From Heptranchias perlo (taxonomy: Eukaryota), in the NCBI RefSeq assembly GCF_035084215.1, contig NC_090354.1, positions 15,624,001-15,688,000 on the forward strand: 64,000 bases of DNA, in the 5' to 3' direction. The position numbers were made by a program, and so were the translations under genes. Under the pieces are notes generated by a model that saw only the letters and a list, made by a program, of their open reading frames with translations, was not told the DNA's origin and did no database searches. Of the stretch, positions 28,200-62,911 are shown one piece after another. How positions within the stretch are numbered: position 1 is the first letter of the stretch; each line of letters begins with the position of its first letter.

Positions 28200-28641
<442 letters not shown>

Positions 28642-30415: not shown

Positions 30416-31570
30416 ATGGCTCTTTTACTGGCTCTACCCCTGATTTCAATTATAATGGAGGAGGAGGAACAGGAGGAAAGAACCAGAGACAGGAAGCCCG
30501 AAGAGTGAAGCATCACAAGCGGAGACAGCACCCTATATGCAAATACCCAGCCCAGAGAGTATCTAGGCCTTGACCGACTTTCCAGGAGATGTCCAAGGAG
30601 CCGACTGTGGGACAGCTGCGCTTTACAAAGGAGACCATTGGTCGACAGTGTGACTTGCTCCGAGATGACTTAAAGCTTCAAATGCAGCAGAAATGAAGGT
30701 GACCACGACCCTCAACTTTTATAGACTGGATCCTTCCCAACATCTCCAGTGGCCCTGTACAGGATTAGTCAAGGGGCAATAAGGGCCTGCATTCGACAGG
30801 TAACTGACATCCTGTTCCATAGGGCTAGGGAGTTCATTAAATTTAGAATATCTGCAGTGGAGCAAAGGCAGAGGGCATTGAGTTTCTACTGAATTGCTGG
30901 CTTCCCCAGAATGCTGAGTGTGATCGACATAAAGGCTCTCCTTCAGAATCCACAAAGCTACATGAGCAGAAAGGGCTATCACTCTCAACGTCCAGGTGAT
31001 TTACGATGCCTGGTTGCACATCTTGCATGTGAACGAGCAGCACGGGGTACTTGTCACAATGCGTTTATTGTGCGCAACTCAGAAATCACATGCATGCTTG
31101 GAATGGCACCCCAGTGGGAGAATATATAAATCGGCGACAAGGCTTACTTCCTGCTGCCATGGCTGATGTCACCTTTTTGCATCCCACAAACCGAATTGGA
31201 GGAGATGTACAATCAAGTACGTGCGCCTACCAGGTAGATCATTAAGAAGACCATCAGGGTGATGAAGAGCCACTTCAGATGCTTGAACAAATCTTGGGCT
31301 GTCCTCCAATACTCCCCACAGAGAGTAGCGAGGATTGTCATTATGTGCTACGCCCTGCACAACTAATTCATGACGGAAGGTCTGGTTCTTGACATACCGA
31401 GAGAGGAGCCAATCGACGCAGAAGATCCTATGTGGCGGGAGCCGGAACTAAGTGATGTAGCACATCCACAGAGATATTGCTTCGAGAGGGCAGGGTTGTG
31501 GTGCAGGCCTTTACCCAATGAACACCCCGCAGAGTTCACACCCAGAAGAGTCAGACACAGCACTCTTTAA
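30416..31570 (+). mobile_element. Decayed PIF/Harbinger (HARBI1-like DDE) transposase pseudogene
   Basis: Ordered motif remnants across frames: LRFTKETI..CDLL, KVTTTLNFY/TGSF, IAGFPRMLSVID, YMSRKGYHS/LNVQVI, GTCHNAFIVRNS, IGDKAYFLLPWLMSP, TIRVMKSHFRCLNKS..LQYSPQRVARIVIMCYALHN. Confidence 0.88.
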
Positions 31571-34999: not shown

Positions 35000-37460
35000 T
35001 ACACATACTGCCACCACCCAAAAGCCCCCGACTTCCCCAGCTCCCTCCTACTACGTTTTGCCACCTCCTCCCCCACTGAGGGCCTGTGTTCCCCACCCAT
35101 TTCTTCTTACAGTCTTTCGGCACCAACACCCAAGTGCCCCAACCTCCTCCTAATGTCATGCCAATGCCTTATCCCTCCTTGCCACCCTGAGTGACTGTGC
35201 CTTTTCTCACTCTCACCTACTGCCTCTTGCCACCAATCCCACTGAGCAGCCATGCCACTCCCACCATCACCTCTTGCCTCTGCCATCCATGCCTCCCAGT
35301 CCTTCACTCCTTCCTACTGCCTCACCACCGCAAGTGCCCATGCCTTTCTCAGCTCACTTGTGCCACCTGTCAGGACTCCCGCCCCGAGTGCCCATCTGTT
35401 TTCCCCCCTCACTGCTCCATACTCTGCAGTGGGGGAGGAGCTTGCTGCTCCCACCCCCAATGCCTTTCCTCCACTCCCTCCTGCTGTTCCTGCCAACCCC
35501 AGCTCACATTGAGCCCCCATACCTTTTCTCCCAATGCTCAGACATCACTATCCAAAAATGCTGATCACAATGCCTTCCTCCCTCCCCCCACACCCTAAGA
35601 CCCCTCCCCTCCCCTGTGCTGCCATACCCCAACATATTTTCAGTCCTACCGGATACCCTCTTCCCACGTTCAGCCAGATCTGCAACATCCGCCCCCCCTT
35701 ACCAGACCCTCAAAGGCCACCAATGTTCCTACACTCCAATGACCCTTGCTCCTAGACCCAAACCTCCTCGTACTACCACACTCCAAGACCCTCTCCCCAA
35801 TATTTCCAGATCTTCCAGCACTGTCACAACTTAGAGAACTCAATCCACCACTGCCGCACTCCATCACACTATTCCTAGACTTTGGAACCCCTTCTCACCA
35901 TTCCCATACCCCACCAATTTCTACCTCAGTGCCTCACACCCCTGTTCTAGCACCCTGATACCTCAACAATCCCCCATTCATAACAGCGTCAGAAATAGGA
36001 GCAGGAGTAGGCCATACAGCCTCTCAAGTCTGCAACGCCATTCAGTAAGATCATGACTGATCTTCGACCTCAACTCCACTTTCCCGCCCGATCCCCCTAT
36101 CCCTTGATTCCCTTAGAGTCCAAAAATCTATTGATCTCAGCCTTGAATATACTCAACAGCTGAGCATCCACCCTCTGGGAGAGAGAATTCCAAAGATTCA
36201 CAACCCTCTGTGTGAAGAAATTTCTCCTCATCTCAGTCCTAAATGGCCGACCCCTTATCCTGAGACTGTGTTCCTTACTTCTAGACTCTCCAGCTAGGGG
36301 AAACAGCCTCTCAGCATCTACCCTGTCCAGCCCTCTCAGAATCTTATATGTTTCAATGAGATCACCTTTCATTCTTCTAAACTCCAGAGAGTATAGGCCC
36401 ATTGTATTCACTCTCTCCTCCTGGGTCAACCCTCTCAACCCAGAATCAATCTAGTGAACCTTCATTGCACTGCCTCTAAGGCAAGTATATCCTTCCTTGG
36501 GTAAGGAGATCAAAATTGTACACAGTGCTCCAGGTCTGGTCTCACCAAAGCCCTGTATAATTGCAGCAGGACTTCCTTACTCTTGTACTCCAACCCCCTT
36601 GCAATAAAGGCCAATGTACCATTTGCCTTCCTAACTGCTTGCTGTACCTGCATGTTAACTTTCTATGTTGTGTACAAGGACACCTAAATCCCTCTGAACA
36701 CCAACATTTAATAGTTTCTCACCATTTAAAAAATAGTCAGTTTGTTCATTTTTCCTACCAAAGTGAATAACCTCACATTATACTGCCACTTTCCAAATCC
36801 TGGTGCCTCCACACTTTCATATTCCAATACCCTCTACCCAGTGCTCCCAAATGCCAGAACCCCCTCTCCAGCTATTTCAACATCCCATGTTTGCCCTGCT
36901 CCTTCTCCTATAACCTCGGACCTTCTAATACTCATGGAGCCCATACACCCTCCCCCCACCATAGGCCCTTAGTGCTATCACAATCTACTCCCCAGTGCTT
37001 CCTCCAACCCTATCCCCACTTCTTTCACATTCCAGCACTACCCATGCCACACCTTGTAACTCTCCCCCTGCATCCCTTCACATTACTCCAAGACTTTGAG
37101 TTGCCCCATCTATCCCATGACCCCCACCCAATCCTCCCATAAACCATAAACACCCTCGCCTCTTTTCCCAAATTCTCACACAATACTTCCAAACCCTAAG
37201 ACTCCCCAGTGAATAGATACATGCAGATATATATTTTTACTTTCCTCCATATTTGTTCCTTCATCTTTCTTTCCTTCAGTACTAACCCAAGTTGCTCCTT
37301 CCATCTTGCACTTCACTTATACCAATCTCTTTCATACTCACCACCAAACTCTGCAACCTTTATCTTTCCTCCTGTTTCATCTCTACTTTTCACTGCTCCC
37401 CCATCGATCAACCCAAATCCCCAGTAGCATGCCACCACCAACCTCTTTCCCACTCACCAT
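35000..37460 (+). repeat. C/pyrimidine-rich, strand-asymmetric low-complexity tract (split by a CR1)
   Basis: The plus strand is C-rich and nearly G-free over about 1.7 kb outside the CR1 insert; it produces spurious Pro-rich ORFs. Confidence 0.7.
35990..36780 (-). mobile_element. CR1 LINE 3' portion
   Basis: Minus-strand GLYSLEFRRMKGDLIETYKILRGLDRVD...NFFTQRVVNLWNSL plus 3'UTR. Confidence 0.93.
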
Positions 37461-38289
37461 CTGCAAATTGCCAAACTAAAAACTAAAGCTAAAACCAGTA
37501 ATTAACCACAGAGTGACATGGGAGTGTTGGACACTGAGGTTCCAGTTCAATATTGATGAGTAATGGAATTAAAATATTAATCACTGCCCTCACAATGGAC
37601 AATTCTTTTATACTTTTCATCTCATTTAGAATTATAAGTATTCCTGTAAGGATGAAAGTAGTACAGTACCAGTGTAGAACTAAACCATATAGACCAGGAG
37701 GCTCTCAAGTTTGATCACTGGTCTGTGTGGTGTTGGTTGATCTCAACCAGAATGGCAGTAGGGGAGCTATTGTTGGCCTCAACAATGCTGGACTAGGAAA
37801 AGACAGAATACCGGAGGGTTCCTGTTGATAATTGCTATGTAGTCCTGCTATGTAATCCTGCTGGCAGTGTTTGCAAACTTATCCTACCATAAATCACTTT
37901 CAGAAGTGGAGGGGAGAAAATTGGAAGGTTGAGAAGAATAACTTTTAAAAGCAGCTGGAAGTGTTGCCACAATAATATAACCAAGAATATGATTTTATGA
38001 TATAGGATCATATATAGATATATACATACACAAATATATATTTATAATTTATTTTTGTTCCAAATTTTCTACATCAATTTTCTCCCCTTTTCTTCGCTAG
38101 GATATGGATCCACAAGCACTGGCTATCCTTTATACTTTGCTCAATTGACCATTATTCATGTGAACCTTGATGGCAGGACATTTTATCAGACAGATCCCCG
38201 CAACTGAGCCAGATCCTGTCCTCACCCAACATCCATTTTGGCAGCAGTTTTCATAGAAAACAAATATGTATGTGAGAGTTTGCAAAGGA

Positions 38290-38532
38290 CCGAATTAGCA
38301 TGAGGATCGGTATCAACGGCGACTTCGGCGTTAATGGGTTTGAAGCTCCCAAAGTGGTCGAGAGGATTTTGCTTTCACCGTGATCGCCGTACGGAGGACG
38401 AGGTTTGTCCCTGCCGCTTTGCTGTCGGGCACCGAAAGCCTGGGCAGTGAGCCGGGTAGCGGCTGCAGTGTAACGCGGGGAGGTGTGAGCAGCTTCTCGA
38501 TCTCTGCCTTGGGTTACTCTTGGATTCAGTAA
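38290..38532 (+). promoter_or_regulatory. G6PC3 CpG-rich promoter / 5'UTR
   Basis: Dense CpG cluster immediately upstream of the ATG in an otherwise CpG-depleted window. Confidence 0.7.
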
Positions 38533-38753
38533 ATGATGGAGCCGCTTTACAGGCACGGTATCCGGGTCGCTGAAGTCTTGCAGCAAACGCTCGGCGGCTT
38601 TGAGAAGAGTTTGCTGTTGCTGAGTTCGATCGGTGACCCCAAAGCCTCCCTTTTTATTTATTTCCCGGTCACGTACTTCCTCAACAAAAAGATCGGGATT
38701 TCAGTTTTGTGGATTACTGTACTTACCGAATGGTTAAATTTAACTTTTAAATG
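38533..38753 (+). CDS. G6PC3: G6PC3 exon 1
   Basis: Encodes MMEPLYRHGIRVAEVLQ...IGDPKASLFIYFP...LTEWLNLTFK(W). Donor TG|gtaagt. The start could be either of two tandem ATGs. Confidence 0.94.
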
Positions 38754-39860
38754 GTAAGTTCCTCTCCTTTTTGGCCCAATTTGTCCCCCCCCCCCCTCCC
38801 CTCTCATCGACATATTCCCCTCTCCTCAGCCTTGAACCTTCCTGCTCTCGTTTCCCAAACCTCCATCTCTGCTATTTCCCACCGTCCAGACATAATCACA
38901 TGGGCTAATGAATCATCCAAGTGGCTTCATAGATAACCAGAAAAATATTTGGTATTGTGACCTATTTGCTATCTTATGTATTTATTAATAATAATAATAA
39001 TGGATTTGAGCATGTAGTACTAAACGGTGCCGGTGTAGGCTGAGAGTTTGCTGCAACTTTGGAAGTGCTGTCTTCAGACCAGATGTTAAATCAGTGACCT
39101 TCCTGCTCGCTCCATTGGTTTGGGTGGATGTTAAAGATGCTATAGCAGTATTAGAAGATCACCGGGGAGTTCTGGCGTCTCCTTCAACCAACGCTACCTA
39201 AAAGCAGATTGATGGATGATTCATCTCATGGCTGTTTATGGGACATTGCTGATGCAAAATGGCTGCCACATTTGCACGTCACTTCACTTAAAAAATGTTT
39301 AAAGCACTTCCTATTTCAATATGCAAGATACAGTGTAAATACAAATATAATGATCAAACATAAATGAGAGAAACTTTTTAAAAATTGTGCTGCCTAGCTG
39401 AAGGGTCAAGGTTGTAAGAAATGGAAGAGATGAGGTAGAACGAGAAATAATGGTTGTGTTCTGCAAATTGCCAAACTAAAAGCTAAAGCCTACCTGTGTT
39501 TGTAATTATACTTTTTCTTGTGCAAGATGTTATTGCAGATATCCAGGTCTTTGTGACATTACAATTTTCCCACTCTCATTTATGGAACACTGCATTGCTT
39601 GAAAATAAACCCACCGAATGACATGGGAGCGTTGGACACTGAGGTTCCAATTCAACATTGATCTAGATGATTAATGGAATTAAAATATTATACATTGCTC
39701 TCCCAATGGACTGTTCTTTTACACTTTTCATCTTATCTAGAGTTACAAGTATTCCTGTAAGGATGAAAGTAGTACAGTATCAGTGTGGAAATAAATTATA
39801 TAGACGAGGAGGCTCTCAAGTTCGTTCACTGGTCTGTGCAGTGTTGGCTGATCTCAACAG

Positions 39861-41899
39861 GAAAGACTCCACAAAAAGGGTGAACCAACCATGGCTGACT
39901 AAGGCAGTCAAGGATGGTATCAGGTTAAAAAAAAAAGCATACACTGTGGCAAAGATTACTGGTAAGCTTGAAGATTGGGAAAACTTTAAAAACCAGCAAA
40001 GGATGACGAAAAGAATAATAAAGAGGGAGAAAATAAATTGAGAGTAAACTATCAAGAAATATAAAAACTGACAGTAAAAACGTCTACAAGTATATAAAAA
40101 GAGAGGGTAGCTAAAGTAAATATTGGTTCCTTCGAGGATGATACTGGGGAAATAATAATGGAAAACAAGGAAATGGCAGAGGAATTGAACAGATATTTTG
40201 TATCTGTCTTCACAGTAGAAGACACTAATAACATACCAATAATAGTAGAAAATCAAGGGGCAAAGGGGAGGGAGGGAGGAACTAAAAACAATCACCGGAG
40301 AAAAAGTACGAGGTAAACTAATGGGTCTAAAGGCTGACCAGACCCCCTGGACCTGATGGTTTGCATTTTAGGGTCTTAAAGGAAGTGGCTACAGAGATAG
40401 TGGATGCATTGGTTGTAATCTTCCGGAATTCACTAGATTCTGGAAAGGTCCCAGCGGATTGGAAAACCGCAAACGTAACGCCCCTATTCAAGAAGGGAGT
40501 GAGACAGAAAGCAGGTAACTATAGACCAGTTAGCCTAACAGCTGTCACTGGGAAAATGCTAGAATCCATTATTAAGGAAGTAGTAGCAGGACATTTGGAG
40601 ACTTATAATACAAGTAAAGAGAGTCAACATGGTTTTACAAAGGGGAAATCATGTCTGACAAATTTATTAGAGTTCTTTGAGGAAGTAACGGGCAGGGTAG
40701 ATAAAGGGGAACCAATGGATGCTGTATATTTGGATTCGATAAGGTGCCACATAAAAGATTACTGCACAAGAGCTCATGGTGTTGGGGGTAATATACTGGC
40801 ATGGATAGAGGATTGGTTAACTAACAGAAAACAAAGAATCGGGATAAAAGGGTCATTTTCAAAATGGCAATCTGTAACTAGTGGGATGCCGCAGGGCTCG
40901 GTGCTGGAGCCTCAACTATTTACGATATATATCAATGACTTGGATGAAGGAACAGAGTGTCTTTTGGCCAAATTTGCTGCTGATACAAAGATATGTGGAA
41001 AAGTAAATTGCGAGGAGGACACGAAGTGTCTGCAAAGGGATATTGACAGGTTATGCGAAAATTTGGCAGATGGAATATAATGTGGGAAAATGTGAAGTCA
41101 TACACTTTGGGAGGAAAAATAAAAAAGCAAAATATTATTTGAATCAAGATATACTACAAAATGCTGCGGTACAGATGGATCTGGATGCCCTCGTACATGC
41201 AACACAAAAAGTCAACATACAGGTGCAGCAGGTAATCTGAAAGGCAAATGGAATATTGGCCTTTCTTTCTAGGGGGATGGAGTATAAAAGCAGGGAAATC
41301 ATGCTACAACTGTACAGGGTGCTGGTGAAACCACAACTGGAGTACTACGTACAGTTCTGGTGCCCTTATTTAAGGAAGGATATACTTGCATTGTAGGCAG
41401 TTCAGAGAAGGTTCACTAGGTTGATTCCAGGTATGGAAGGGTTGTCTTATGAGGAAAGATTGAACAGGTTGGGTCTATACTCATTGGAGTTTAGAAGAAT
41501 GAGGGGAGATCTTATTGAAATATACAAGATTCTGAGGGGACTCGATAGGGTAGATGCTGAGAGGATGTTACCCCTCATGAGGGAATCTAAAACTAGGGAG
41601 CATAGTCTCAGAATAAGGAGTTGCCCATTTAAGACAGAAATTAGGAGGAATTTCTTCTCCCAGAGGGTCGTGAATCTTTGGAATTCTTTACCCCAAAAAG
41701 CTGTGGAGGCTGAGTCATTGAATACATTCAAGGCTGAGTTAGACAAATTTTTGATCAGCAAGGGAGTGAAAGGATATGGGGAAAAGGTGGGAAAGTGGAA
41801 GTTGAGGTAAAAATCAGATCAGCCATGATCTCATTAAATGGCAGAGCAGGCTTAAAGGGCCAAATGGACTACTCTTGCTCCAATCTCTTATGGTCTTAT
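39861..41899 (+). mobile_element. CR1 LINE, about 2 kb, 5'-truncated, frameshifted RT
   Basis: Motifs PADWKTANVTPLFKKG, NYRPVSLT, QHGFTKGKSCLTNLLEFFE, GMPQGSVL; C-terminal RRMRGDLIE; 3'UTR. It splits a SINE that is intact in duplication copy A. Confidence 0.96.
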
Positions 41900-42045
41900 A
41901 ACCAGAATGGCAGTAGGGGGGGCTATTGTGGCCTCAACAATGCTGGACTACAAAAAGACAGAATACTGGCAAGGGTTCCTGTTGATAATTGCTATGTAGC
42001 GAATCCTGCTGGCTTGGTGTTTGCAAACTTATCCCACCATAAATC

Positions 42046-42478
42046 AGTCAGCTTCATTGGTACCCCATCCACCAGTCTAAACATTCACTCCCTTCACCAC
42101 CGGCACACTGTGGCTGTAGTGTATACCATCAACAGAATGCACAGCAGCAACTCAAGGCTTCTTCGACAGCACCTCCCAAACCCACGACCTCTACCACCTA
42201 GAAGGACAAGGGCAGCAGGCACATGGGAACACCACCTGCACGTTCCCCTCCAAGTCACACACCATCCCAACTTGGAAATATATCACCGTTCCTTCATCGT
42301 CGCTAGGTCAAAATCATGGAACTCCCCACCTAACAGCATTGTGGGAGAACCTTCACCACACAGACTGCAGCAGTTCAAGAAGGTGGCTCACCACCACCTT
42401 CTCAAGGGCAATTAGGGATAGGCAATAAATGCTGGCCTTGCCAGCTACACCCACATCCCATGAATGAATAATTTTAAA
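42046..42478 (+). mobile_element. LINE 3' end (same family as 15866-16047)
   Basis: SLNIHSLHHRHTVA...SFIVARSKSWNSPP...FKKVAHHHLLKGN*, then ccacatcccatgaatgaat. Confidence 0.85.
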
Positions 42479-42489
42479 AAATCAGTGCA

Positions 42490-42930
42490 AGTACCCCTGT
42501 AACGACATGATAATTATTAATGACAGCCAATCAACCTCTTGCCTAGAAAGTAAACAATTATAATTGTGGAGTCTCATTCTTTTAGGTTGTGAATGGTTTT
42601 AGGAGATTTTAAAAATGTCAAATTTTAAATTTTCACTCTTCTTATTTTCCCTTTGTCTCTTTTTTCTCTCTCTTAATCTAATCTCTCTTTATTTCTCTTT
42701 CTCTACATGATTTGACATGGAATTCACCCAATCTAATTCATCCTCCTTCTCAATCCTTCTGTTTTTTCCCCAATCCTTTAATCTTATTGAAAAAGGACTT
42801 ACACTGTTTCTCTTGCTGTTGCGTTGGTACCAGCGTGCACTTCCAGCAACTTTGTAGGCAAAAAATTTAAAAACCTAAACCTGCAATTGTAAGTCTAATT
42901 AACGGGGCATGCTAGCAAAATCTGGCCCAA
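42490..42930. mobile_element. Probable non-autonomous DNA transposon remnant
   Basis: Ends in gcaaaatctggccc, has a pyrimidine-rich interior, and a related inverse-oriented copy lies near 51190-51500. Family uncertain. Confidence 0.4.
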
Positions 42931-43543
42931 AATTCCTTGCTGTGTCCTTTGGCCATGGAAGTCCCCAAGCGTTCTGGTGGACCCACAAGTCTGACATGCT
43001 CCCTCTTCAGGGCCACTCGGACCCAGGCAAGAAAGAGAGAAAGGCAGCCAGAGTGACCCTCCCCATGGGCCGTGCTAATCCTGAACTTGTGAATGCTCTT
43101 AGCCAGGTCCTATGAGCAGACCCACAAGATCATCCTCTGACTTGTCTGCTCCCCCGGGTGGCCAAATATCAGTAGGGCTAAAATTTTACTCAAATAATTA
43201 AGAAGGGGCTTCAACCTCTCACACTGTACATAAATATGAGAAACTGTTAACAATTATTATGAGAATTGATAACAACGACTACAGTATTAATGGCTTGAAG
43301 TTTGAAAAGTGCTGTAGGATCCTTTGCTTTGACTAATCGTCGATTGGAGGACGGGGTTTGTCCCCGTTGGTTTGCTGTCGGACACAAGAAACCCGGGAAG
43401 TGAGCCGAAGTGTTAGAATCATCGAGCTGGGTTAATGGCTGCAGTGTAGCCCGGGGCGCTGTGAACAGCCGCTCACCCTCTGCTTGGGTTACACTGACGG
43501 GCATTTGAGTTTACATTTAAATTCACTTTGTTACCACCAGTAA

Positions 43544-43756
43544 ATGATGGAGCCGCTTTACATGCACGGTTTCCGGGTTGCTGAAGTTTTGCAGCAAATG
43601 CTCGGCGGCTTTGAGAAGAGTTTGCTGTTGATAAGTTTGATTGGCGACGAATACATTTTATTTGTTTCCCTGTCACGTATTTTCTCAGCAGAAGATCGGG
43701 ATATCGGTTTTGTGGATTACTGTACTTACCATTTAAAAGTTAAATTTAACCATTCG
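43544..43756 (+). pseudogene. G6PC3: Degenerate duplicate of G6PC3 exon 1, inside intron 1
   Basis: Reads MMEPLYMHGFRVAEVLQQMLGGFEKSLLLISLIGD, then shifts frame relative to exon 1. Nucleotide similarity continues through the retained donor CG|gtaagttcctctccttt. Length is 213 nt versus 221 nt. Confidence 0.93.
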
Positions 43757-43854
43757 GTAAGTTCCTCTCCTTTTCGGCTCAGTTTGCTCCCACTGCTCTC
43801 ATCGACATCTTTCCCTTTCCTCAGGCTTGCACCTCCCTTCCCTCGTTTCACCGC

Positions 43855-44890
43855 AATAAGAACAGGAGTAGGACATTCAGCCCCTGGAGTCTCCTCTGCC
43901 ATTCAGTTAGATCATGGCTGATCTGTACCTCTAATCCATCTACCCTCCTTTGTTCCATAATCCTTGATGCCCATACCCAACAAAAATCTATCTGAGTCTT
44001 GAAAGCTCCAACTGTCCTATGATCCCTTTTGGGTGAGTGTTCCAGGTTTCTACTACCCCTTGTGTGAAAAAGTGCTTGCTGATTTCCCTCCTAAATGGTC
44101 TAATTGAAATTTTAAGATTATGTACTCTCCTTGATTTCCCCCAGCAAGGGAAATAGTTTCTCTATCTACCCCATGGAATCCTTTTAACATTTTAAACACC
44201 TCGATCGGATCACCCCTCAAATCTTCCATACTCGAGGGAATACAAGCCAAGTTTATTCAACCTATCCTCATAATTTAACCCTATAAGCCCTAGTATTATT
44301 CTGGTGAATCTGTGCTGCACCCCCTTCAAGGCTAATATTTCCTTCCTGAGGTGTGGTGCCCAAAACTGAACACAGTACTCCAGATGGTGTTTGACCAAGG
44401 TTCCCCTTTTTAATCCAGCACCCCCCGAGCTAAAGGCCAACATTGCATTAGCCTTTTTGATTGATTTTTATACCTGTCTACTAGCTTTAAATTATGTGTA
44501 CTTGGACTCCCAAATCTCTGCTTCTCTACAGTTCTAGTTTCTCACCATTTAGAAAATACTCCAATTTATCTTTCTTTGGTCCAAAGTAGATGGCCTCACA
44601 CTTGCCCACATTAAACTCCATCTGCCATAATTTTGTCCACTCACTTAGTCTGTATGTCCCTCTGCAACTTCCTGCTCCCATCTGCACTACTTACTGTTCC
44701 TCCTAATTTAGTGTCACCTGCAATCTTGGATATACAACACTCTATTCCTTAATCCAAGTCATTAATAAATATGGGGAAAAATTGCGGCCCCAGAGCAGAT
44801 CCCTGGGGAGCATCACTTTTGACATGCTGCCAATCTGAGTACATACCCTTTATCCCCACTCTCTGTCTCCTACCTCCCAAACAATTACCA
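43855..44890 (-). mobile_element. CR1 LINE 3' portion
   Basis: Minus-strand APQGSALGPQFFPIFINDLD, HLEYCVQFWAPHLRK and RGDPIEVFKMLKGF, plus 3'UTR. Confidence 0.92.
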
Positions 44891-45895: not shown

Positions 45896-46005
45896 GTTGC
45901 TGATGGGCGAGCGTCCGTTTTGGTGGATTCATGAATCGGGGGTCTACAGTGAGCAGCCGATGCCCAAGTTAAAGCAGTTTTTCTCCTCCTGTGAAACTGG
46001 CCCAG
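45896..46005 (+). CDS. G6PC3: G6PC3 exon 2
   Basis: Encodes (W)[36 protein letters not shown](G). Acceptor ccaatag|G, donor CAG|gtttgt. Confidence 0.95.
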
Positions 46006-47516
46006 GTTTGTTCAATTTAAGTGCTAAGTGAATTCTAGACTATACACAGGCTGGCTATTTTTATCTGTGTTTTCTGTCAAATCAATCACTTAGATTGACA
46101 TGCAAATTTCTAAATTTTATTTCTTAGATTTAAGTTTCAGCTTTTTTTTAAAAAAAGATTTTCCTTCAATTTCTCAATACACTTTTCTCTCCTGTTAAGG
46201 AAGTTTTATGTTTTGTACATTGGTCTGAATGGAAATTAGTTGCTGTAAATTCATCAATTCAAGAATCCATTTTGTTGACTTTAACAGAGCTGAACTAACT
46301 TGAACCTGCCAATTTCAAATCAAATTTTTATTGATAATTAGCAATTCAAAATTGCAAATTAGCCATCCTCTTATAGAGCTGGTTATTTTCAGTGGCCCAC
46401 TATTCAGTTGGACACTTTTCCTGCTCTCAATTAGAAGAATATTCCAGATCATTACACAGTCAAATACCCAGGTACCTAAGAGCTATTTGTTTGTATATCC
46501 AATAGTATATCCAACTATGAGTTGTATTATGTAGAAGAATAATGAGAAGGTGGGTGCACTCAAGGAAAATAATCTTATTGAAAGGATTCAGATGTTCGTG
46601 AGAGCAAACGTTTGCGCGGGTTGGTATCTGAACCCAGTGAGAGATTATTTTCATAGTGGTCACCCCCACCTATTCTGTTTAAATGCAACACTCATTTTAT
46701 CATTAAACATTGTCTGATCCATTGTTATATGGGTGGTGTATCCTATCCATCAGTACTGACTTTGGCCAGGAAATTCTATTCACTTAATCAGTAAGAACAT
46801 TCTCACTGAAGGACTTAATCTGTCAGACAATCATTGCAAATGTATGGAATTTAATCTGCAGTTGATTATTGGGAAATTATATAGGTGTTATTGGTTACCC
46901 ATTGACTAGAGGAAAATTGCAGGAATGTACGCAGTCCAAGTTGAATTTTCAGTCAGGTCTCTACTGATGTCCATATAAGCCCAGAACTAACAAGTGACAC
47001 AGAAATTTTTCTGTAATTCTTTCCCTGACTCTTTCATTTGTTGTGTTTCCTTTTCATCATTCATGAAAAACGACAGTGGGTGAATTGATTTAAGAGCCGT
47101 TAGTCACAGGGGGCACAGAGTCAAAGCTACAATATCACAATGATTCACACTATACTCTCATGTACGTAAACATTTTAACGATTAAGACTGAGATGCTATG
47201 AACTTCTCTGGTGTGTATGGCTTAGTACCATAGTGTGCACCTACCCACTGTGCCATTAGGGCAGCTCAGATTCAGCTCCTTCAATCATTCTTCGAAGTTA
47301 TTGATTCTAATATCCAATGCCAGTGTAGTGCAGTTGATGTTCACGGGGGGTGATAAAGGTGTTCATCATGCCACCAGCAGTGGCTTACAAAGAAATGGTT
47401 TGCAGTTGATTAATAGGTAACTTTTCCCACAATTTTTATTGGTTCACTTACATTAAACTTTTGTGTGATTTGGGAAATAAAGTACTAGTTTTCTTGCTGT
47501 GTTTGTGTTATTTTAG

Positions 47517-47607
47517 GCAGTCCTTCGGGTCACGCCATGATCACAGGTGCAACCTGGTGGGTTATGATGACCAGTCTTTCCACGTTCATTTACAATCGCA
47601 CTAGAAG
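47517..47607 (+). CDS. G6PC3: G6PC3 exon 3
   Basis: Encodes (G)SPSGHAMITGATWWVMMTSLSTFIYNRTR(S). Acceptor attttag|GC, donor AG|gtttgt. Confidence 0.95.
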
Positions 47608-48205
47608 GTTTGTGCTGCTTGAACTGTTTAAATGTCAAAATGATCAAATAATTATTCACTATTTAAATACAGGAATCATAAATGTAGATCTACTCCCCCT
47701 GTCTCACCGACAATTTTCTTCTCCATTTCTGAAGGAGCTGACTGACTCTTGCTTGGAAATGGTTCCATGCGCACCAGTTGCCTTCCATTATCTCACCCTA
47801 TTGGGCGCTTTTTATGTGGAAACCTGACAATGAGCATCGACGGGCTAGTTGATCACAGAGGGCATGATAGGCAAACTGATTCTGTCCTGAGGATCAAAAC
47901 GTGCATACTTTTGACAGGTGTCACCAGTTCGCAGCTGTAAATCGACACTGCAGCTAATGATCTGATTAGAATAGGCAGTGCTCTTCTGAGATTGGGTTAA
48001 GACATATTTTTGGGACGAATAGCTATAATTTTGCTGTGCATCTGCCAAAACTGTATTTAACTTTGATGTGCTTGATGTTGACACTGGATGCTAAAAGTGA
48101 GTGCGCCCCATTCTCCAAAACATCTCAGAATTCACTAAAGCTATAACTTTTTTATGTGTTAACAGTTATAGTATGTTATTAACCATTTTTTCCATGTATT
48201 TTAAG

Positions 48206-48324
48206 CTCACTGGCAAAGAACATTCCTGTAGTATTGTACATCATTATGCTGCTGGGAGTCGGCATCTCCAGAATATTCATTTTGGCTCATTTTCCTCATC
48301 AAGTACTTGCTGGAATAGTTACAG
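48206..48324 (+). CDS. G6PC3: G6PC3 exon 4
   Basis: Encodes [39 protein letters not shown](G), including the catalytic His motif. Acceptor ttttaag|C, donor AG|gttaga. Confidence 0.94.
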
Positions 48325-50130
48325 GTTAGAGCTTTAATCACAATGTGTTCAATGGCCTAATGGGTGACTGGGAGAGATTCTGTAACTCTGTGCTGACACT
48401 CCTGATATTTGAATTTAGTTTTAATTTGAAATTCCCTCCTCCTTGTTCTCCTTTGGGTACTCTTCCATGCCACTGATATGGTGGCAAACCAACCTATCCC
48501 TAGCAGCTGCCAATGTCTACCAGAACCAGCTGTATGACAGCAATTAATATCAGCACCTCTGCCAGTGCCATAGCCAAGATAAGAAGTTAACATAAATTCA
48601 TGGCCAGTCACTCCCAGGTTATTAGCCATGATTCCATCTTTAACAACTCAGCTAAAGCCAACGGTATTTTATGATTTTTCTTCTAAATTCAAATAGATAT
48701 TGAACTTTCCATCCTCTTCATGGCATAGTTTTTAAGGAGGAAATGGTTAGTGCAGCTGTATGGAATGTCCCAAACGTTGCAGTAGATGTTTAGTGTCGAT
48801 GTAACAACGACAGACAGAAGTGCTTAATACCTGAAATGAAGAACCTAGGAATACTTTCTTTGGCAAGATGTAGACCCTCTGGAGGATTGTACACAATTTG
48901 TCAAATGAGACCTGCGCCCCTCCCACTCAAGCTAGAGAAGTATTAATAAATCTTTCATTGCAAAGTAGAAACAACTACACTCAAAACTGGAGGAACACCT
49001 TGTACAACAAACATGCATAATATACAAAAGACCAACTAGGTATGAAACTTAGTAGTGAGGAATGTTGCCTCCCTGTGTTTTTAATAATGAATCTAAAATC
49101 TCAGCAAGGGATTCAGACAGTGAAATTCTCAAAATCTTTTAAAAATTTAAAATTTAAAATTTATTTCAACAAAATATTTAGTGCCTCCCCTTTGTGTATC
49201 CAAAAAGGCAGCAGAGTGAAGCAGTTTTGGAAGGATGGGCAGGATGTAGGTTTGTGGCTACAATTTGCCATGTGGCAAGTTGCCAGAGGATCGTTCTCAG
49301 TCAAGAGTGGTGGGAAACAAGGGACTAAGTAGTGGTTCTGTCCTTTCACCCCTGGGATCTGGGTTTAAATCCACCATGGGATGGGATGAAAGTTTCCACA
49401 TGTTTGCTGTCTGCGGGCATACATATAAAAGCAGAATTCAGTGCGCCTATAAAGAAGGATGTTGTTTTCTTGAACTAAGATGCAGTGCCAAGCACAAATA
49501 TAAAAGTGCTTTTTATCCTTTAAATTTGTTCACACCTGTTTTGCTACCTCTGTACGACCCTGATCCTGCCTCCTTGTTTTTACGTCCTGAGATTTTTCTT
49601 TCTATTTTGAGTTTGGTTTCATTTTCTTTAAGTTAACTCAGCATAGAGCAGGAATTGAATGTAGGACCTTACTGATATGTATATCTCTGTCCTACACCAT
49701 GTGTCATTTAACCACTGAGCTATTACGGGAAGGAGAGATTGGACTCCCATTTTTCTCACATCCCCTCCTGTGCCACTGACAAACCGCAGCGGAGGCGACG
49801 TGGATAACATGCTTCAGTATCCATCCGAAACTGGACGCTAGTGAGAGTGATCCAGGGTTGGCTTTGCTGTCAATTGTTCCCTACAAGTGGCAAAACACTT
49901 GGGTCTTGCTTGTAATCTCTCCATGGCAATGTAGTGGTTATTGGGAAATTGTGAGAACCCACATCCCACCACTCTGGTGGAGTGCAGTGGCATTTTAACA
50001 TGCCATGCCACCTTCACTACATGACCCAACCATTTAAAGATTACCTGGAAAACCTTAAGGACAGTGTACAAGTTCCTAATCTGTGAGCATCAAAGTAAAT
50101 AGCCATTAATAAACCTCTTTTGAATTTCAG

Positions 50131-50272
50131 GTGCTATACTTGGCTTTCTGCTAGGCAGGCATGTACCTGAGAACATCAAACTCATCCATTGTGTTGCTAC
50201 CTCAATCGGGCTGCTGCTCAGTGCTGTCTGCTTGTACTGGGGATTGCATTACCTTGGTGTCAATCTTTCTTG
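50131..50272 (+). CDS. G6PC3: G6PC3 exon 5
   Basis: Encodes (G)AILGFLLGRHVPENIKLIHCVATSIGLLLSAVCLYWGLHYLGVNLS(W). Acceptor tttcag|GT, donor TG|gtaagt. Confidence 0.93.
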
Positions 50273-52840
50273 GTAAGTCTTGCAATTTTCACACTTTCCC
50301 TTTCCAACAGCTAGTACCTGTTGTATGAGGTCCATATGTCCTTGGTTTGCAAGATTCCTATGTGTTTTATGATCAAATTTCTTAGAGAGAAACAGATAGG
50401 AATACACATGGCAGACTTCAAAACATTTAAGTTAGGAAGGAGAAACATACAATCTGGGGAGAGGAATAAATCAACCAGGGTCCCTGTGCTCAACTCCTAC
50501 TCAGTGATTCCTGTTGGAAAGTGTGCATATGTCAGATGTAGAGGAAATAAAATGCATAACATCTTCATTTTTTAAAAAAGAAAACATTCTTCCAAATTAC
50601 TGGACGATAAATGATGAAACAGTGGTACAGTAGGGATCTTTTCTCCCCAAATACTGGGAGATCGCATGTGGAGTTGCTCAGGGTAAGCTAGAGAATATGC
50701 TGTTTATAAGGACAGGAGTGTTATACTATATAACACGTAATGGATTTTTCGCTGTTGAGGTACAGGTTTGTTATCCTGGCCACAGGTCTAATTGCTGTAA
50801 ATAAGCTCATCCTGAGATCATTTAGAAGGCAGTCGTTTCTCTGGAGATTGGTAGCAACAGGAAATGACTGATTTCTGTTTTCTTTTTAATGCTTCTTTAA
50901 GATTGTTTGCATCAGTAACAAAGTGAGACCTCTGAAGTATGGTGGACTTAGACGTTTTCTACAGATAGTCCTTACTTGCTGACTGCAAAGCATTTTTAGT
51001 GTTTTCCACCTTGTAATCGGGTTTTCCAGTTCTGCAGTGATTCCTTTTTTAACACGTGAATCCAGATCTTGACAGGAAAACAACAAACCTAAATAATATA
51101 CAGGGATTTCAGTTACTGTTTTTTTTTCCCTGCATGTTTTCAAAAAATACTGTTCTTCACATAGCACTGTAGACTGAATAAACAGCAAATGTGTTGACAT
51201 TGTGATTGGTCAGAAATTGCATCCTTAATTTAGGAACACAGAAAGCGTAAAGGGCAAAAAAAGATTGGGAGAGCAGACAGTCAAAAATAGAGAGGGATGA
51301 TAAAATGAATGGATCAAGAGTGAAACAAAAATATACAATGATATGAAAGATAAGCAAAATCTATGAATAAAGTTTTTCTTTACACCAAATCTGTCCAAGC
51401 TGGTTATTTTCATGGGCCTTGTGTGTACCAGTCAGCCTCATGGGCCACATATAAAGTTTAAAATCAATGTTCCCATTAATTTGCATATATCTCAAGCTGT
51501 GGATTCTAGCTGATCCTGGTGTTTTGATTTAGGATGTATCCACCAATGAGGCAAAAGCACTTAAGAAGAAATCACTAGGCCCATGACATTCAAACAGGAC
51601 AAACCAGCGAGTAAGAAATATAAGCATGAGTAGAGAAGAACTTGCCTGCCTTTGTGGGCTAGATTGCCAGGGCTCACCATTGCATGATTGAATGTAGTTG
51701 GCACATCCCTGACATATGTATTCATGTGACTTCCCACTATACACACACCTTAGATCAAGATAGCTCAACAGTTTAAATATTTCTATGTATTTTCACCTAA
51801 TTAGAATAATTAAAATTTCTAACTGACCAAAAAAGGTGAAATAACTAGAAGCTGTCTGCTTGCTTCAAAATTCAATACTATTTTGAAAAATAAATGAAAA
51901 CTCTGTATCTCCATCTCAGTTTAATACACTTTGAAGTTTATGGAACACAAAATGAAAGGTATGTGCACTGTCATTTTCTCTCTGACATGCACATATCCTT
52001 TCTGTTTAAGAAGAACACTGAAAATAAACTTTACCTGAATAAAGCTTCTGAAATTTGGTTTCTAGCTTTTCTTGAAATAATTTAGAAAACAACTATCTTT
52101 TGTTAAAATGTTTCACTCTGTCTCCATTGTTTGGCTAGCTTAACTGCTACTGATGCATCCTGGGAAATTGCACACCGTACATGCTCAAACCGCAAGACCT
52201 GCCTTCAGCTGACAGCGTCACAGCTCTGGGCAGAAGTACCAAGTTAAAGGCCAGGCTTTTGGAGAGGTTGAGGCTTTCAAATCTTTCATGAAGGCATTAA
52301 ATGACACAAAATAAAGTTCAATGGCTAAATTTAATCATGTTACTGTGAAATATGTATTTTTTAAAAAATGTTATTTAAACCTTTATTTTGGACAAATTAG
52401 AAATCTCAGTTACTGAGGGAAAAAAATGGCAAATAAAAAAAAATCAGAAAGCATTTTGAGCAATTCATGGGGAACAGTACCATCTAGTGGCTATGGCCTG
52501 AACGTGAGAGATGACAGGGCACAGTTGACATAGGGGTTTTCCATTTTAAATGTAGACATCGAAATTTGTAATGGAAAAAGTTGACACAAAAGTGTGACAA
52601 CAAACATAAGAAGAAAGGTTTTGTAGCCAGAAAATAGCATTGCACAGTGAGTCAAGACCTATACTGATTTAAAATGTATCATCTTGATGCTACTTCATAA
52701 TATAATGACATCAATGTTTAAATCAGTAGCATCGGCTGGTCTCAATGAATTATTTTCATGCCACTCACCTGGCCAGCTGCTCATTAGTTATACATATAAC
52801 ATTTCAGAAAGAATCTGAAACAGACCTTGCAGCCACCAGG

Positions 52841-53200
52841 TGAATTGAACCTGGAAGACTTAATGAATTGATTTATACCTGCAACATAACTGTTTGTTTA
52901 TTTAATTTTCAGAAAGTGGGTTGAGCAGGCTCACTGAAATATTTATTTTCATTTATTGCACACAGACTGTGTTGAAAAGCAAAGGGATAAAACCTATAGA
53001 TTTGATGAACTACTGTATACACCCAACAGCTATTTTGTTTCTTTAATTTTTGGGCAGCAGGTCAAGCAGCCTCACTCAATTCTTTATTTTCATGCGGCCA
53101 AAAAATGAATTGAACCCAGACAATTTTAATTGATTAAGTTGTACCTGCAACATAACTATTTAATTTTCAAACAGCAGGTCAGAAGCTTTCACTGACTTTT
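52841..53200. repeat. Degenerate tandem repeat, unit about 130 bp, roughly 3 copies
   Basis: tgaattgaacc...tacctgcaacataact...tttaattttc...cactga recurs at 52841 and 53106, with a more diverged middle copy. Confidence 0.65.
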
Positions 53201-54348
53201 CTACTCCCAGAAATTTTTAGCCACTATGTTGGTTTAAGGAAATCCATTTGATCCAAAAAAGAAAGAAATGGAGTAGGAGATGATAAGTGACAGCCCACTC
53301 ATGTTAATTCAAAGTTGTTCAATTTTTGCTCAAAAAAAACTTCAGCTTATCAGATAATTCAAATAAAGCAATTTCAAATTGAGAGAAGCAATTGTAATTT
53401 CAAAAGTACCTCATACTTTTGTCATTTCCTAAGTTGGTCAGCATTGAAGTTTTGTGAAGAAAAACAAATCTGAAAGACAGTTTAGAGGACCAGCCTGTGA
53501 GTAAATCACATGGTAGTAATTATCCAGTCACGGTTAAGTATAATGAATGGAATAGAGCCACCTAGCTTGTAGGCACATTGACTGTCATTTACCAATTATT
53601 GTGGATTATCCCTCAAATTTACAATGAACACATCATCATTTGTTTATTAGGCTTATGCCTACAATTCCACACACAGAGTTCCTTATTTTACTCGGGATAG
53701 ATGCCAGGTACTTTCCCTGCAGTGAGGGAGCAACATAACACAACTTTAAGGAACTGGCTACAGAAAAGCACTAGCAGGCCTGGCAGCAGCTACCTTCTTG
53801 CCCTTTCAGCCAGGGGCAGGAAAAATTATTTCATTTAGGAGTGAAAATGTATAATACTTCATTAAATCAAAAAAAAATTACTTTACAACATAAGTTTCCA
53901 AACCAGAGTCAGTGGAGGGTCTATCCCAGGAGGTTTGTGAGGTTATTTGATTCTTTTCGATCTATCTGGGGCTGGGCTTATCACATCTCACAAGCACAGT
54001 GCCCAAGAATTTTGATTTCTCTCTTTTTCTGTAGTTGCTAACTTACCAGCACATTATTTCCTTTGCTGTGTGCTAATCAAAAAACATTTTCTGCAGTGAT
54101 AGAAATGGTTTCCTTTGGATAGTTGTCACAGTAATATAGAAGTTAAGAAAATACTCCTTGGGAGTGTGCGGGGTATCCCACACAGAAAAGTTTGAAAAGC
54201 ACTGTTTTGTAAAATAATTAGAAATTCTTCTTATATCGTTTAATGCCAATCTAATCAGACCTTCCAGGCAGGGAGAAGTGATGGTGAGTCTGATGTTCTT
54301 TTTGACAAATACACAGAATTGCACTGTTGCAGAGCTATCTATTATAGT

Positions 54349-54628
54349 TAGGGTTGCCAACCCTCCAGGATTGTCCTGGAGGCTCCAGGAATTAAAGATT
54401 AATCTGCTGGACATTGCTGTAAGCAACCCGGAAGAAAAACAGTCGGGGGCATTAAAAAAAGTGCGCTTTTTTTCCCCATTTGCTTTGAACACTTTTGTTT
54501 ATTAGTTATAAAAATATCGGAGATGGGGGGGGGGGGGAAATGGCTATTTGACTGGGCGAGGCTGTTGGAGGCAGGCAGCTCTGTGATGAAACTTCCAAGA
54601 ATGCGTCTAACCATAGTTGGCAATCTTA
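54349..54628. mobile_element. hAT-superfamily MITE (280 bp)
   Basis: Terminal inverted repeats TAGGGTTGCCAAC...GTTGGCAATCTTA, flanked by a perfect 8-bp TSD ATTATAGT (54341-54348 and 54629-54636). Confidence 0.92.
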
Positions 54629-54694
54629 ATTATAGTACATGTGCATTTAAAGGCACAGGCACTCTTAGAACTAATTCACTATTGCATGTTCTAG

Positions 54695-55058
54695 GACGAT
54701 TTTCCTTGCTACAAAGTGGTGTGCCAAGCCTGAATGGATTCGACTGGATACAGCACCATTTTCTTCACTAAGCAGGGATGCAGGGGCAATCCTAGGGCTT
54801 GGCCTCGGTCTCTCCTCACCAATGTATGCCAGCACACAGGGATGGAAAATGACATGGAAGCTGAAGACTACCTGCATAGTGCTCTCTGTGCTCATAATTG
54901 AGATAATGAATCAAGTCCCACTACCAAAATACTCCAATATCCTGTTTTATGTTCTGTTTTACCTGAAGAATGCATTTGTTCCCATTTTGGTGATTGCTAT
55001 TATCCCCTGGCTGGTGCATTCCATATTTGTAATTCAGCAGTCTCGGAAACAACAGTAG
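54695..55058 (+). CDS. G6PC3: G6PC3 exon 6 (terminal)
   Basis: Encodes (W)TIFLATKWCAKPEWIRLDTAPFSSLSRDAGAILGLGLGL...IIPWLVHSIFVIQQSRKQQ*. Acceptor gttctag|G. Confidence 0.94.
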
Positions 55059-62437: not shown

Positions 62438-62911
62438 ATGCAGGAGGATTCCAATTCCCCGTTTTCTCCTGTGGACAGTTCGAGCAACAGCGAGGAAGAA
62501 CAGGACTCACAGCAGAAGAGAAATGGCAGAAAGAGACGTTCAGGCCAAAGGTCTCAAAGGCCCAGCACCGGGAAGAAAGGGATGAAGATTTCTCCCCTTG
62601 CCCAAAGTTTGGAAGATATTCAGACCCAGAGAGTCGTGGCCAACGTGAGGGAGCGTCAGAGGACACAGTCCCTGAATGATGCTTTTGCAACTCTTCGGAA
62701 AATCATCCCCACTCTGCCTTCAGATAAACTCAGTAAAATCCAGATCCTTAAACTGGCCACCAGGTACATCGACTTCCTCTACCAGGTGCTGCAGAACGAT
62801 GAGATGGATAGTAAGGTGACAAGCTGCAGTTATCTGTCACACGAAAGACTCAGTTATGCATTTTCTGTCTGGAGGATGGAAGAATCCTGGCCCTTGTCTG
62901 CTGGACCTTAG
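62438..62911 (+). CDS. twist3: Twist-family bHLH transcription factor, probably twist3 (single coding exon, 157 aa)
   Basis: [22 protein letters not shown]-terminus, RKRR NLS, b[54 protein letters not shown], and WR/Twist box [13 protein letters not shown]. The first true ATG is 62438 (the ORF track starts at an upstream TTG). Family is certain; the paralogue call rests on KIQILKLA and synteny. Confidence 0.9.

What the first reader, a model, noticed from the sequence alone, without database searches (positions are those of the whole stretch)
37461..43850. G6PC3 promoter and first exon tandemly duplicated; possible promoter turnover
Seen: a unit containing upstream DNA, the CpG-rich promoter, exon 1 and its donor occurs twice, starting at 37461 and 39461. 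Only the upstream exon is in frame with exon 2. The downstream copy is frameshifted and has taken up a 2-kb CR1 and another LINE, yet retains many CpGs, both ATGs and the donor. It also contains segments absent from the functional copy (about 39500-39605 and about 35 nt just before the ATG). Inference: the dead copy nearer exon 2 may be the ancestral first exon, replaced by a new upstream duplicate. CpG retention hints that it is still unmethylated and may act as an alternative promoter or enhancer.
Basis: partly seen in the sequence, partly recalled or inferred. Interest (0 to 1): 0.7.

Follow-up and report, generated by a model that had tools for sequence, protein, structure and literature searches.

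The report
Shark G6PC3's decaying duplicate first exon
In a sevengill shark's G6PC3 gene the promoter and first exon sit twice in a row; the upstream copy is intact and present in RNA-type data, the downstream copy is a broken, transposon-riddled twin rather than a replaced ancestor, and it likely cuts some transcripts short by lending them an early poly(A) signal.

Summary
The duplication is real: promoter + exon 1 of G6PC3 occur twice (units start 37460 and 39460). The window's exons match Heptranchias perlo G6PC3. Copy A is in frame. Copy B has -7 and -1 deletions, a 25-nt microinversion and four repeat insertions.

'Turnover' is not supported. Both copies descend from one ancestor. Outgroup peptides side with A more often (promoter substitutions 7:4, CDS 10:2). 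A keeps the ancestral intron continuation, while B keeps a 107-nt ancestral piece, so each copy lost something.

B's CpGs decayed about 1.8x the background against 7-8x in three neighbouring retroposons. That suggests past germline protection, not present activity.

New leads: in one sample's RNA-type contigs, A transcripts run through the donor and stop 19 nt after an ATTAAA in B's upstream flank. Contig break points also fit a splice into B's 107-nt piece. A RefSeq isoform uses an exon inside the CR1 just behind B.

Verdict: an ordinary decaying duplicate first exon with a probable poly(A)-trap side effect. This scan noted the same layout (upstream copy kept) at other shark genes.

The parts
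37460..39459 (+). Copy A: whole 2000-nt unit (upstream flank, promoter, exon 1, start of intron 1)
37460..37896 (+). Upstream flank shared with B; holds an old dispersed short repeat (about 37661-37834) and ATTAAA 37568; lacks the 107-nt piece
37897..38292 (+). A-only middle piece; its start is also in an outgroup contig (X11 record 1 reaches 37935), so likely lost from B
38293..38532 (+). CpG-rich promoter / 5' UTR of copy A; 38294-38402 corresponds to the alternative 5' exon of Heterodontus isoform X2
38533..38753 (+). Intact exon 1 CDS (MMEPL...FKW), 100% identical to H. perlo G6PC3 X1; covered by contigs of X5 and X6 with no differing letter
38721..38759 (.). 7-bp inverted repeat (38721-38727 and 38753-38759) whose second arm is the splice donor; predicted RNA hairpin
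38855..39459 (+). A-only intron tail, ancestral intron 1 (Pristiophorus in-frame insert aligns to 38830-38928); contains an old repeat at about 39040-39295
39460..43849 (+). Copy B: interrupted second unit
39490..39610 (+). B-only ancestral segment; candidate splice acceptor AG 39525-39526 and AATAAA 39604-39609
39679..39718 (+). Candidate intronic poly(A) site: ATTAAA 39679-39684, X5 contig stops at 39703, X6 end estimated near 39718, U/GU-rich stretch behind
   Evidence: inferred; tail letters not seen
39860..41899 (+). 5'-truncated CR1-type LINE inserted into B after the duplication (splits the shared repeat); 3.8% non-CpG divergence from its family
42041..42481 (+). 3' end of a second LINE family (relatives share upstream ORF-bearing sequence), A-rich end
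42482..43250 (.). Further dispersed repeat(s), unnamed, where B lacks A's middle piece
   Evidence: depth table
43252..43543 (+). Promoter / 5' UTR copy B with B-only pieces of 23 nt (43407-43429) and about 36 nt net (about 43497-43538)
43544..43756 (+). Pseudo-exon 1B: -7 and -1 deletions, phase 0 at an intact donor
43731..43755 (-). Exact 25-nt microinversion between the 7-bp inverted repeats
43855..44870 (-). Older antisense CR1 that begins where A/B homology ends; 7.8% non-CpG divergence from its family
44019..44032 (+). Coding start and donor of the exon used by RefSeq H. perlo isoform X2 (MIPFG + exon 2); 5' end of that exon unknown
45896..46005 (+). G6PC3 exon 2, spliced to exon 3 in X5 and X6 contigs
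47517..55058 (+). G6PC3 exons 3-6 (span)

Best explanation
The G6PC3 promoter and first exon are present twice in tandem, the upstream copy A is intact and in frame while the downstream copy B is frameshifted, inverted at its 3' end and split by retroposons, and B is most likely a non-coding relic of one old tandem duplication whose main present effect is likely to end some A transcripts early at a poly(A) signal in its upstream flank. Steps: (1) inferred: one event of about 2 kb produced two equal twins; neither is 'the ancestor'. (2) Shown by outgroup peptides and contigs: each twin later lost ancestral pieces, B lost more and changed faster. (3) Inferred: A survived because it kept all sequence upstream of the unit, while B lay inside A's transcript; insertions then removed about 400 nt in front of B's promoter and about 600 nt of its intron. 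(4) Inferred from CpG decay: B's island stayed largely unmethylated in the germline for much of its history and has since begun to erode. (5) Inferred from contig ends and break points in one sample: DNA that used to lie upstream of the promoter now lies in intron 1 and offers an acceptor (39526) and a poly(A) signal (39679), giving unspliced and minor spliced short RNAs that would encode only 73-74 residues without the active site.
For: Frames and coordinates. Polarisation by single-event swaps: promoter, against the Heterodontus X2 peptide, 7 B-derived, 4 A-derived, 17 unresolved of 28 substitutions; 3 B-derived, 2 A-derived, 1 unresolved of 6 indels. CDS, against 6 outgroup proteins: 10 B-derived, 2 A-derived, 11 unresolved of 23 substitutions, 2 of 2 indels B-derived; the inversion is also B-derived. 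The whole peptide needs at least 12 changes to fit A and 22 to fit B. The Pristiophorus 34-aa insert aligns to A 38830-38928 across the end of A/B homology; the part beyond it scores 38, with 0 of 400 random windows reaching that; tblastn aligns P0013 residues 1-106 to 38536-38928. Outgroup contigs cover both the B-only piece and the start of the A-only middle. CpG decay ratio: island 1.8 (bootstrap 0.8-3.7) against 7.0 and 8.4 for the two CR1s; the LINE between them lost 10 of 19 CpGs at 9 of 204 non-CpG transitions. RNA-type contigs (spliced joint 46003-47515, GT..AG): 38091-38755 without differences, and 38726-39703 with 21 letters left over at the 39703 end. 39703 lies 19 nt behind ATTAAA and is not followed by an A-rich stretch (5 A in 20). 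X6 alone breaks at both 38753 and 39526/39555, as a 38753-39527 splice predicts; that AG ranks 5th of 58 by pyrimidine tract.
Against: The poly(A) reading rests on contigs from one sample and one study; the 21 extra letters and the 38753-39527 joint were not displayed, and X6's end (about 39718) is back-calculated from a bin mean. RefSeq isoforms X2 (exon ending 44032) and X3 (starts at Met77) could be driven by promoter B; their 5' ends were not visible to me. Raw CpG retention in B (15 of 30 kept) differs from the adjacent old CR1 (1 of 11, P=0.028) but decay does not differ from the young CR1 (11 of 26 vs 12 of 26, P=1.0); the A/B asymmetry (11 vs 5) is not significant (P=0.21). With the inversion turned back, A and B are identical over 68 nt around the donor (permutation P=0.0005), which a purely neutral relic does not explain. 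The 23- and 36-nt B-only pieces are unpolarised. The two peptides used for polarising are predicted isoforms, one species each.
Confidence: 0.72

Rival explanations
1. Promoter turnover: B is the original first exon in its original place; A is a later copy placed upstream that took over.
For: B keeps a 107-nt segment that outgroup contigs also hold and A lacks. B has two more segments absent from A. B shows the outgroup state at 6 of 23 polarised substitutions and 2 of 7 polarised indels.
Against: A shows the outgroup state at 17 of 23 polarised substitutions and 5 of 7 polarised indels. A is joined to ancestral intron sequence that B lacks and to an ancestral middle piece. In a tandem duplication both units are the same age, so retained segments show only which twin lost them.
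Confidence: 0.07
2. B is a retained non-coding regulatory element: a still unmethylated weak alternative promoter or enhancer that starts the CR1-exon isoform and is kept similar to A near the donor by selection or gene conversion.
For: CpG o/e 0.88 against 0.29 window-wide. Low CpG decay ratio. An annotated exon ends about 275 nt behind B's donor. 68-nt identical run at the donor.
Against: B's promoter changed faster than A's, GC fell from 0.516 to 0.453, and about 400 nt in front of it were replaced by repeats. The X2 exon can equally be a cassette spliced from A: candidate acceptors at 43907 and 43911, both giving stops.
Confidence: 0.17
3. B is wholly inert; the read-through contig is ordinary intron retention or nascent RNA that ends near 39703 by coverage or graph break.
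For: Contigs cannot prove an RNA end; one sample; the donor is predicted to fold into a hairpin (z -2.4), and Pristiophorus isoforms also include 5' intron sequence, so leakiness at this donor predates B.
Against: Two runs end within about 15 nt of each other, at canonical distance behind a hexamer, with unaligned letters at that end in X5. This rival differs from the best explanation only in step 5; its share is counted inside that uncertainty.
Confidence: 0.3
4. Assembly artefact: two haplotypes or a mis-join placed in tandem.
For: None found; the DNA runs that hold the stretch (X1-X4) are one sample and may be the assembly's source.
Against: 4-18% non-CpG divergence, copy-specific insertions that are themselves 4-8% diverged, and contigs with non-assembly alleles that bridge the junction by 734 and 244 nt (X5).
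Confidence: 0.01

Closest known systems
Variable-first-exon arrays with pseudo/relic exons (UGT1A, GCNT2; PMC1885805, passages read)
   Same: Tandemly duplicated promoter + first coding exon in front of shared downstream exons; duplicates often die by frameshift (e.g. baboon Ugt1a2b, human UGT1A2).
   Different: Only two units, in a single-copy housekeeping enzyme; the second unit cannot splice in frame, so no protein diversity results.
Inverted-repeat-flanked microinversions (PMC8755829, abstract read; template switching PMC5453318, search listing)
   Same: 25 nt, exact reverse complement, flanked by a perfect inverted repeat.
   Different: Seen between paralogous copies in one genome; one arm is a splice donor, which the inversion leaves intact.
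Intronic polyadenylation in the first intron (PMC5499120, PMC12548281; search listings and start of abstracts only)
   Same: Transcript reads through the first donor and appears to end behind a hexamer about 930 nt downstream; would encode a short peptide.
   Different: Here the signal is supplied by a duplicated piece of the gene's own upstream flank; the tail was not seen.
Intronic CpG island from a dead duplicate acting as weak promoter (RB1 intron 2; PMC2791201, abstract read)
   Same: CpG-rich dead sequence inside an intron, with an alternative exon next to it.
   Different: RB1's island comes from a retrocopy of another gene and has shown allele-specific methylation and promoter activity; none of that is shown for B.

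Membership tests
Variable-first-exon array (UGT1A/GCNT2 type) | Tandem homologous units of promoter + first coding exon | tested here: met
Variable-first-exon array (UGT1A/GCNT2 type) | One shared set of downstream exons | tested here: met
Variable-first-exon array (UGT1A/GCNT2 type) | At least two units splice in frame to the shared exons | tested here: not met
   B is phase 0, exon 2 needs phase 2; B corresponds to the pseudo/relic class only
Variable-first-exon array (UGT1A/GCNT2 type) | Each unit has its own active promoter | not testable with these tools
   no CAGE, ATAC or raw RNA reads available
Promoter turnover | The promoter in use is younger than, or not orthologous to, the ancestral one | tested here: not met
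   A aligns with outgroup 5' region and ancestral intron better than B
Promoter turnover | The dead copy carries the outgroup state at polarisable differences | tested here: not met
   B carries it at 6 of 23 substitutions and 2 of 7 indels, plus the 107-nt piece; A at the rest
Promoter turnover | Outgroup single-copy locus has B's flanks in B's order | tested here: inconclusive
   no outgroup contig displayed that spans the unit; the Pristiophorus peptide points to A's order
IR-flanked microinversion | Short segment (17-33 nt in PMC8755829) that is the exact reverse complement of its homologue | tested here: met
   25 nt inside a 39-nt 100% minus-strand match
IR-flanked microinversion | Perfect or near-perfect flanking inverted repeat | tested here: met
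   7-bp arms in both copies
Intronic polyadenylation site | Hexamer 15-35 nt before the RNA end | tested here: met
   ATTAAA 39679-39684; ends 39703 and about 39718
Intronic polyadenylation site | No genomic A-rich stretch behind the end (internal priming) | tested here: met
   5 A in the next 20 nt
Intronic polyadenylation site | Non-templated poly(A) tail | tested here: inconclusive
   21 unaligned letters at that end in X5, letters not displayed
Intronic polyadenylation site | Seen in independent samples | not testable with these tools
   all four own-species RNA-type runs are one sample, one study
Intronic CpG-island alternative promoter (RB1 type) | CpG o/e above 0.6 and GC above 50% (usual criteria, recalled) | tested here: inconclusive
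   o/e 0.88 met, GC 0.453 not met
Intronic CpG-island alternative promoter (RB1 type) | Unmethylated state and transcription starts at the island | not testable with these tools
   only historical CpG decay could be measured

The most novel reading that the evidence does not exclude
Copy B is a kept, non-coding control module built from the gene's own front end: its upstream flank works as a poly(A) trap that throttles G6PC3 and shields B's island from read-through methylation, the island starts the CR1-exon isoform in some tissue, and the donor region is held identical to A by conversion or selection.
Probability: 0.15. Interest if true: 0.55.

Novelty: new member of a known kind. Interest (0 to 1): 0.3.

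Why it matters
As a relic it is a tidy, dated record of how a duplicated gene start decays in a slow-evolving genome: which twin dies, how fast an orphaned CpG island erodes beside methylated controls a few hundred bases away, and how a microinversion leaves a donor intact. If the poly(A) trap is real, it shows that duplicating a gene's front end can lower its output by moving upstream DNA into intron 1. Other shark genes in this scan also seem to keep the upstream twin, which makes 'the upstream copy wins' a testable rule. Nothing here changes what is known of G6PC3's enzymology.

Tried and rejected
No RNA holder is listed on record for the stretch; X5-X8 are RNA by guess; I take X5 and X6 as RNA because of a GT..AG joint. 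Bin 43248-43591 (B promoter and start of exon 1B) has no contig in X5 or X6, nor have three intron bins; contigs drop rare forms, so this is not used as evidence. Only the best-supported rows of the joint, loose-end and piece tables were shown (1889 joints and 324165 pieces not shown), so an A-exon 2, B-exon 2 or A-39527 joint could not be read directly. Whether organisms C and E have one or two units is unresolved: X11's piece on the B-only segment ends at 39611, just where shared homology starts, which hints at one unit but proves nothing. Relaxed or retained coding constraint on B: 6-10 non-synonymous changes on 150 sites against about 5 synonymous on 45, P=0.13-0.34, inconclusive. Absolute dating: the epaulette shark rate (7e-10 per generation, PMC10587355, passages) gives implausibly many generations for 4-9% per branch, so only relative dating is given. 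N-termini of short isoforms from Chiloscyllium, Cetorhinus and Rhinoraja (3 tried) did not map convincingly to A, B or the intron. No local source for the B-only pieces (longest shared words 12, 8, 8 nt). No clear terminal inverted repeat for 42482-43250. In some searches the random windows were drawn without excluding the true site; one window equalled the observed score in each (63 of 300 windows' maximum; 68 of 150), probably the site itself, not checked. Literature: searches listed no paper on this locus or duplication; the library lacks most subscription papers; no supplements were opened. No earlier finding near this place.
Full report
What is there. The window holds the six coding exons of G6PC3; they match RefSeq Heptranchias perlo isoform X1 (74 of 74 residues in exon 1; PAP2 domain), with LSM12 head-to-head 10 kb upstream. 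The front end of the gene is present twice. Homology starts at 37460 and 39460 and continues in three blocks. Exon 1A (38533-38753) is in frame with exon 2; exon 1B (43544-43756) is 8 nt shorter and reaches a stop early in exon 2. The promoter-exon was found nowhere else in the genome among the candidates scored.

Only 983 of A's 2000 nt have a partner in B. B lacks A's middle (37897-38292) and A's intron tail (38855-39459), and both gaps coincide with insertions: a LINE 3' end at 42041-42481 plus a further repeat, and an antisense CR1 at 43855-44870. The cluster of differences before B's donor is a single exact inversion of 25 nt between 7-bp inverted repeats, one arm being the donor. It fits the described class of 17-33-nt microinversions flanked by inverted repeats (PMC8755829, abstract). 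A has the ancestral orientation, since it encodes the motif shared with the homologues.

Not an artefact. Non-CpG divergence between the copies is 25/234, 5/138, 35/190, 15/157 and 14/88 in five segments (heterogeneous, P=0.0006). An X5 contig with two other letters and a 3-nt gap against the assembly bridges the A/B junction, and an X6 contig does too. Outgroup contigs differ from the window by 10-13% in the five pieces counted (biased low by the 80% filter), about as much as A differs from B, so the event is old. The three retroposons in and behind B are 3.8%, 4.0% and 7.8% from their families.

Turnover test. In a tandem duplication both units are the same age, so the claim needs the outgroup to look like B, in B's order. 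Whole outgroup loci were not available, but predicted isoforms expose outgroup DNA as peptides. The Heterodontus X2 N-terminus corresponds to 38294-38402 and needs at least 12 base changes to fit A and 22 to fit B. Swapping one difference at a time: in the promoter 7 substitutions are B-derived, 4 A-derived, 17 unresolved; indels 3, 2 and 1. In the CDS, against six proteins, 10, 2 and 11; both indels are B-derived. A 34-residue insert in Pristiophorus isoforms aligns to A's intron at 38830-38928, across the point (38854) where B's homology ends; the part beyond that point scores 38, reached by 0 of 400 random windows. So the A tail is ancestral intron 1 and B lost it. Against this, contigs of X11 cover 39561-39580 and of X18 cover 39561, inside the 107-nt piece that A lacks, so that piece is ancestral and A lost it; another X11 contig runs to 37935, into the middle piece that B lacks. 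The outgroup state is a mosaic with A ahead. The 23- and 36-nt pieces remain unpolarised.

CpG test. B's island has 27 CpG in 598 nt (o/e 0.88; A 34 in 562, 0.91; window 0.29), but GC has dropped to 0.453 from 0.516. Of 30 aligned A CpGs, B keeps 15 and has TpG/CpA at 11; the reverse count is 5 of 23 (asymmetry P=0.21). Relative to non-CpG C/G transitions the decay ratio is 1.8 (0.8-3.7), against 7.0 (3.3-13.3) and 8.4 (3.2-21) in the two CR1s; the LINE between them lost 10 of 19 at 9 of 204, about 8 by hand. If half of the island's non-CpG transitions belong to A's branch, the ratio rises to about 3-4 (hand calculation). Raw decay does not differ from the young CR1 (P=1.0), although that element is younger than B. 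Reading: B's island was protected in the germline for a good part of its history and is eroding. This says nothing direct about today's methylation.

RNA-type data. X5 and X6 (one sample, RNA by guess, with an exon 2-exon 3 GT..AG joint) cover A from 38091 to the donor without a differing letter. Both also have a contig that starts at 38726 and runs through the donor: in X5 to 39703, with 21 letters left over at that end; in X6 to 39555, continued by a contig that starts at 39526 and ends near 39718 by bin arithmetic. 39703 is 19 nt behind ATTAAA, followed by a U/GU-rich and not an A-rich stretch. X6, and not X5, breaks at 38753 and at 39526/39555. One splice from A's donor to 39527 would produce both breaks, and the AG at 39525-39526 ranks 5th of 58 in the region by pyrimidine tract. 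That acceptor lies in the piece A has lost. Both forms stop at once after exon 1 (74 and 73 residues), before the catalytic arginine and histidines (positions recalled). These are inferences from contig geometry in one study; I put the poly(A) site at about even odds or a little better.

Evidence that keeps B's activity open. RefSeq isoform X2 begins MIPFG, which maps to one place only, 44019-44032, ahead of a GTGAGT donor inside the CR1 behind B; 1 of 21 family copies compared has GT at that donor position. Its 5' end could be B, A (cassette with stops) or the CR1. Isoform X3 starts at Met77 and so has a non-coding 5' part of unknown origin. A and B are identical over 68 nt around the donor once the inversion is turned back (41 events in 309 columns, P=0.0005): a conversion tract, perhaps tied to the repair event that made the inversion, or selection on B's donor.

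Mechanism, with status. Shown: two units, A intact, B broken, mosaic of ancestral pieces, faster change in B. Inferred: one tandem duplication; loss of B because A kept the upstream context and transcribes across B (transcriptional interference and gene-body methylation are recalled mechanisms, not tested); insertion-linked deletions; a poly(A) trap from B's flank, possibly helped by a hairpin predicted over A's donor (z -2.4, 4 of 200 shuffles), in line with U1 protection of proximal sites (PMC5499120, start of abstract).

Comparison and verdict. The layout is that of variable-first-exon arrays with a pseudo-exon (PMC1885805, passages), but it fails the defining test of two in-frame units. 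It works like a relic member, not like RB1's shown intronic promoter (PMC2791201, abstract). This scan's notes describe the same layout at shark interferon, CD1-like and KLHDC1 genes (unchecked). I found no paper on this locus. Observation confirmed, turnover rejected, regulatory role open. Interest 0.3.

Noticed in passing
window 38091: Contigs of both X5 and X6 stop aligning at exactly 38091 with 43 and 30 letters left over; no AG or donor fits there and an antisense repeat starts at about 38092. Allele difference, adapter or unknown upstream exon; unexplained.
   Followed up: partly
window 28366-28485 (-): LSM12 exon 1 (Pfam LSM12_LSM), head-to-head with G6PC3 10 kb away; the same neighbours as in human (recalled).
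   Followed up: partly
window 38402: Second, upstream donor in A's 5' region, matching the end of the Heterodontus X2 exon; a 1-nt insertion in A removes the in-frame ATG, so this could be the source of isoform X3.
   Followed up: partly
window 38721-38727: The inverted-repeat arm inside exon 1 reads like the 5' end of U1 snRNA (recalled) and is predicted to pair with the exon's own donor (paired probability near 1 in a 111-nt fold).
   Followed up: partly
window 43515-43540 and 38505-38529: Both copies have a pyrimidine-rich AG just before the ATG; use of B's as an acceptor would make a 216-nt exon with an immediate stop.
   Followed up: no
window 62420-62911 (+): Intronless-looking bHLH ORF (Pfam HLH) with a C-terminal motif recalled as Twist-type.
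   Followed up: no
window about 30500-31450: CpG-richer stretch that looks by eye like a decayed PIF/Harbinger-type transposase (recalled resemblance; not tested).
   Followed up: no
L075-L078 (G000:C1:49.23-49.24 Mb): Four identical-scoring CR1 matches spaced 2277 nt apart: a young tandem array that contains a CR1 fragment.
   Followed up: no
window 35000-36000 and 36780-37460: C-rich, G-poor low-complexity tracts flanking an antisense CR1 (35980-36779) directly upstream of the duplication start; may mark the 5' breakpoint context.
   Followed up: no
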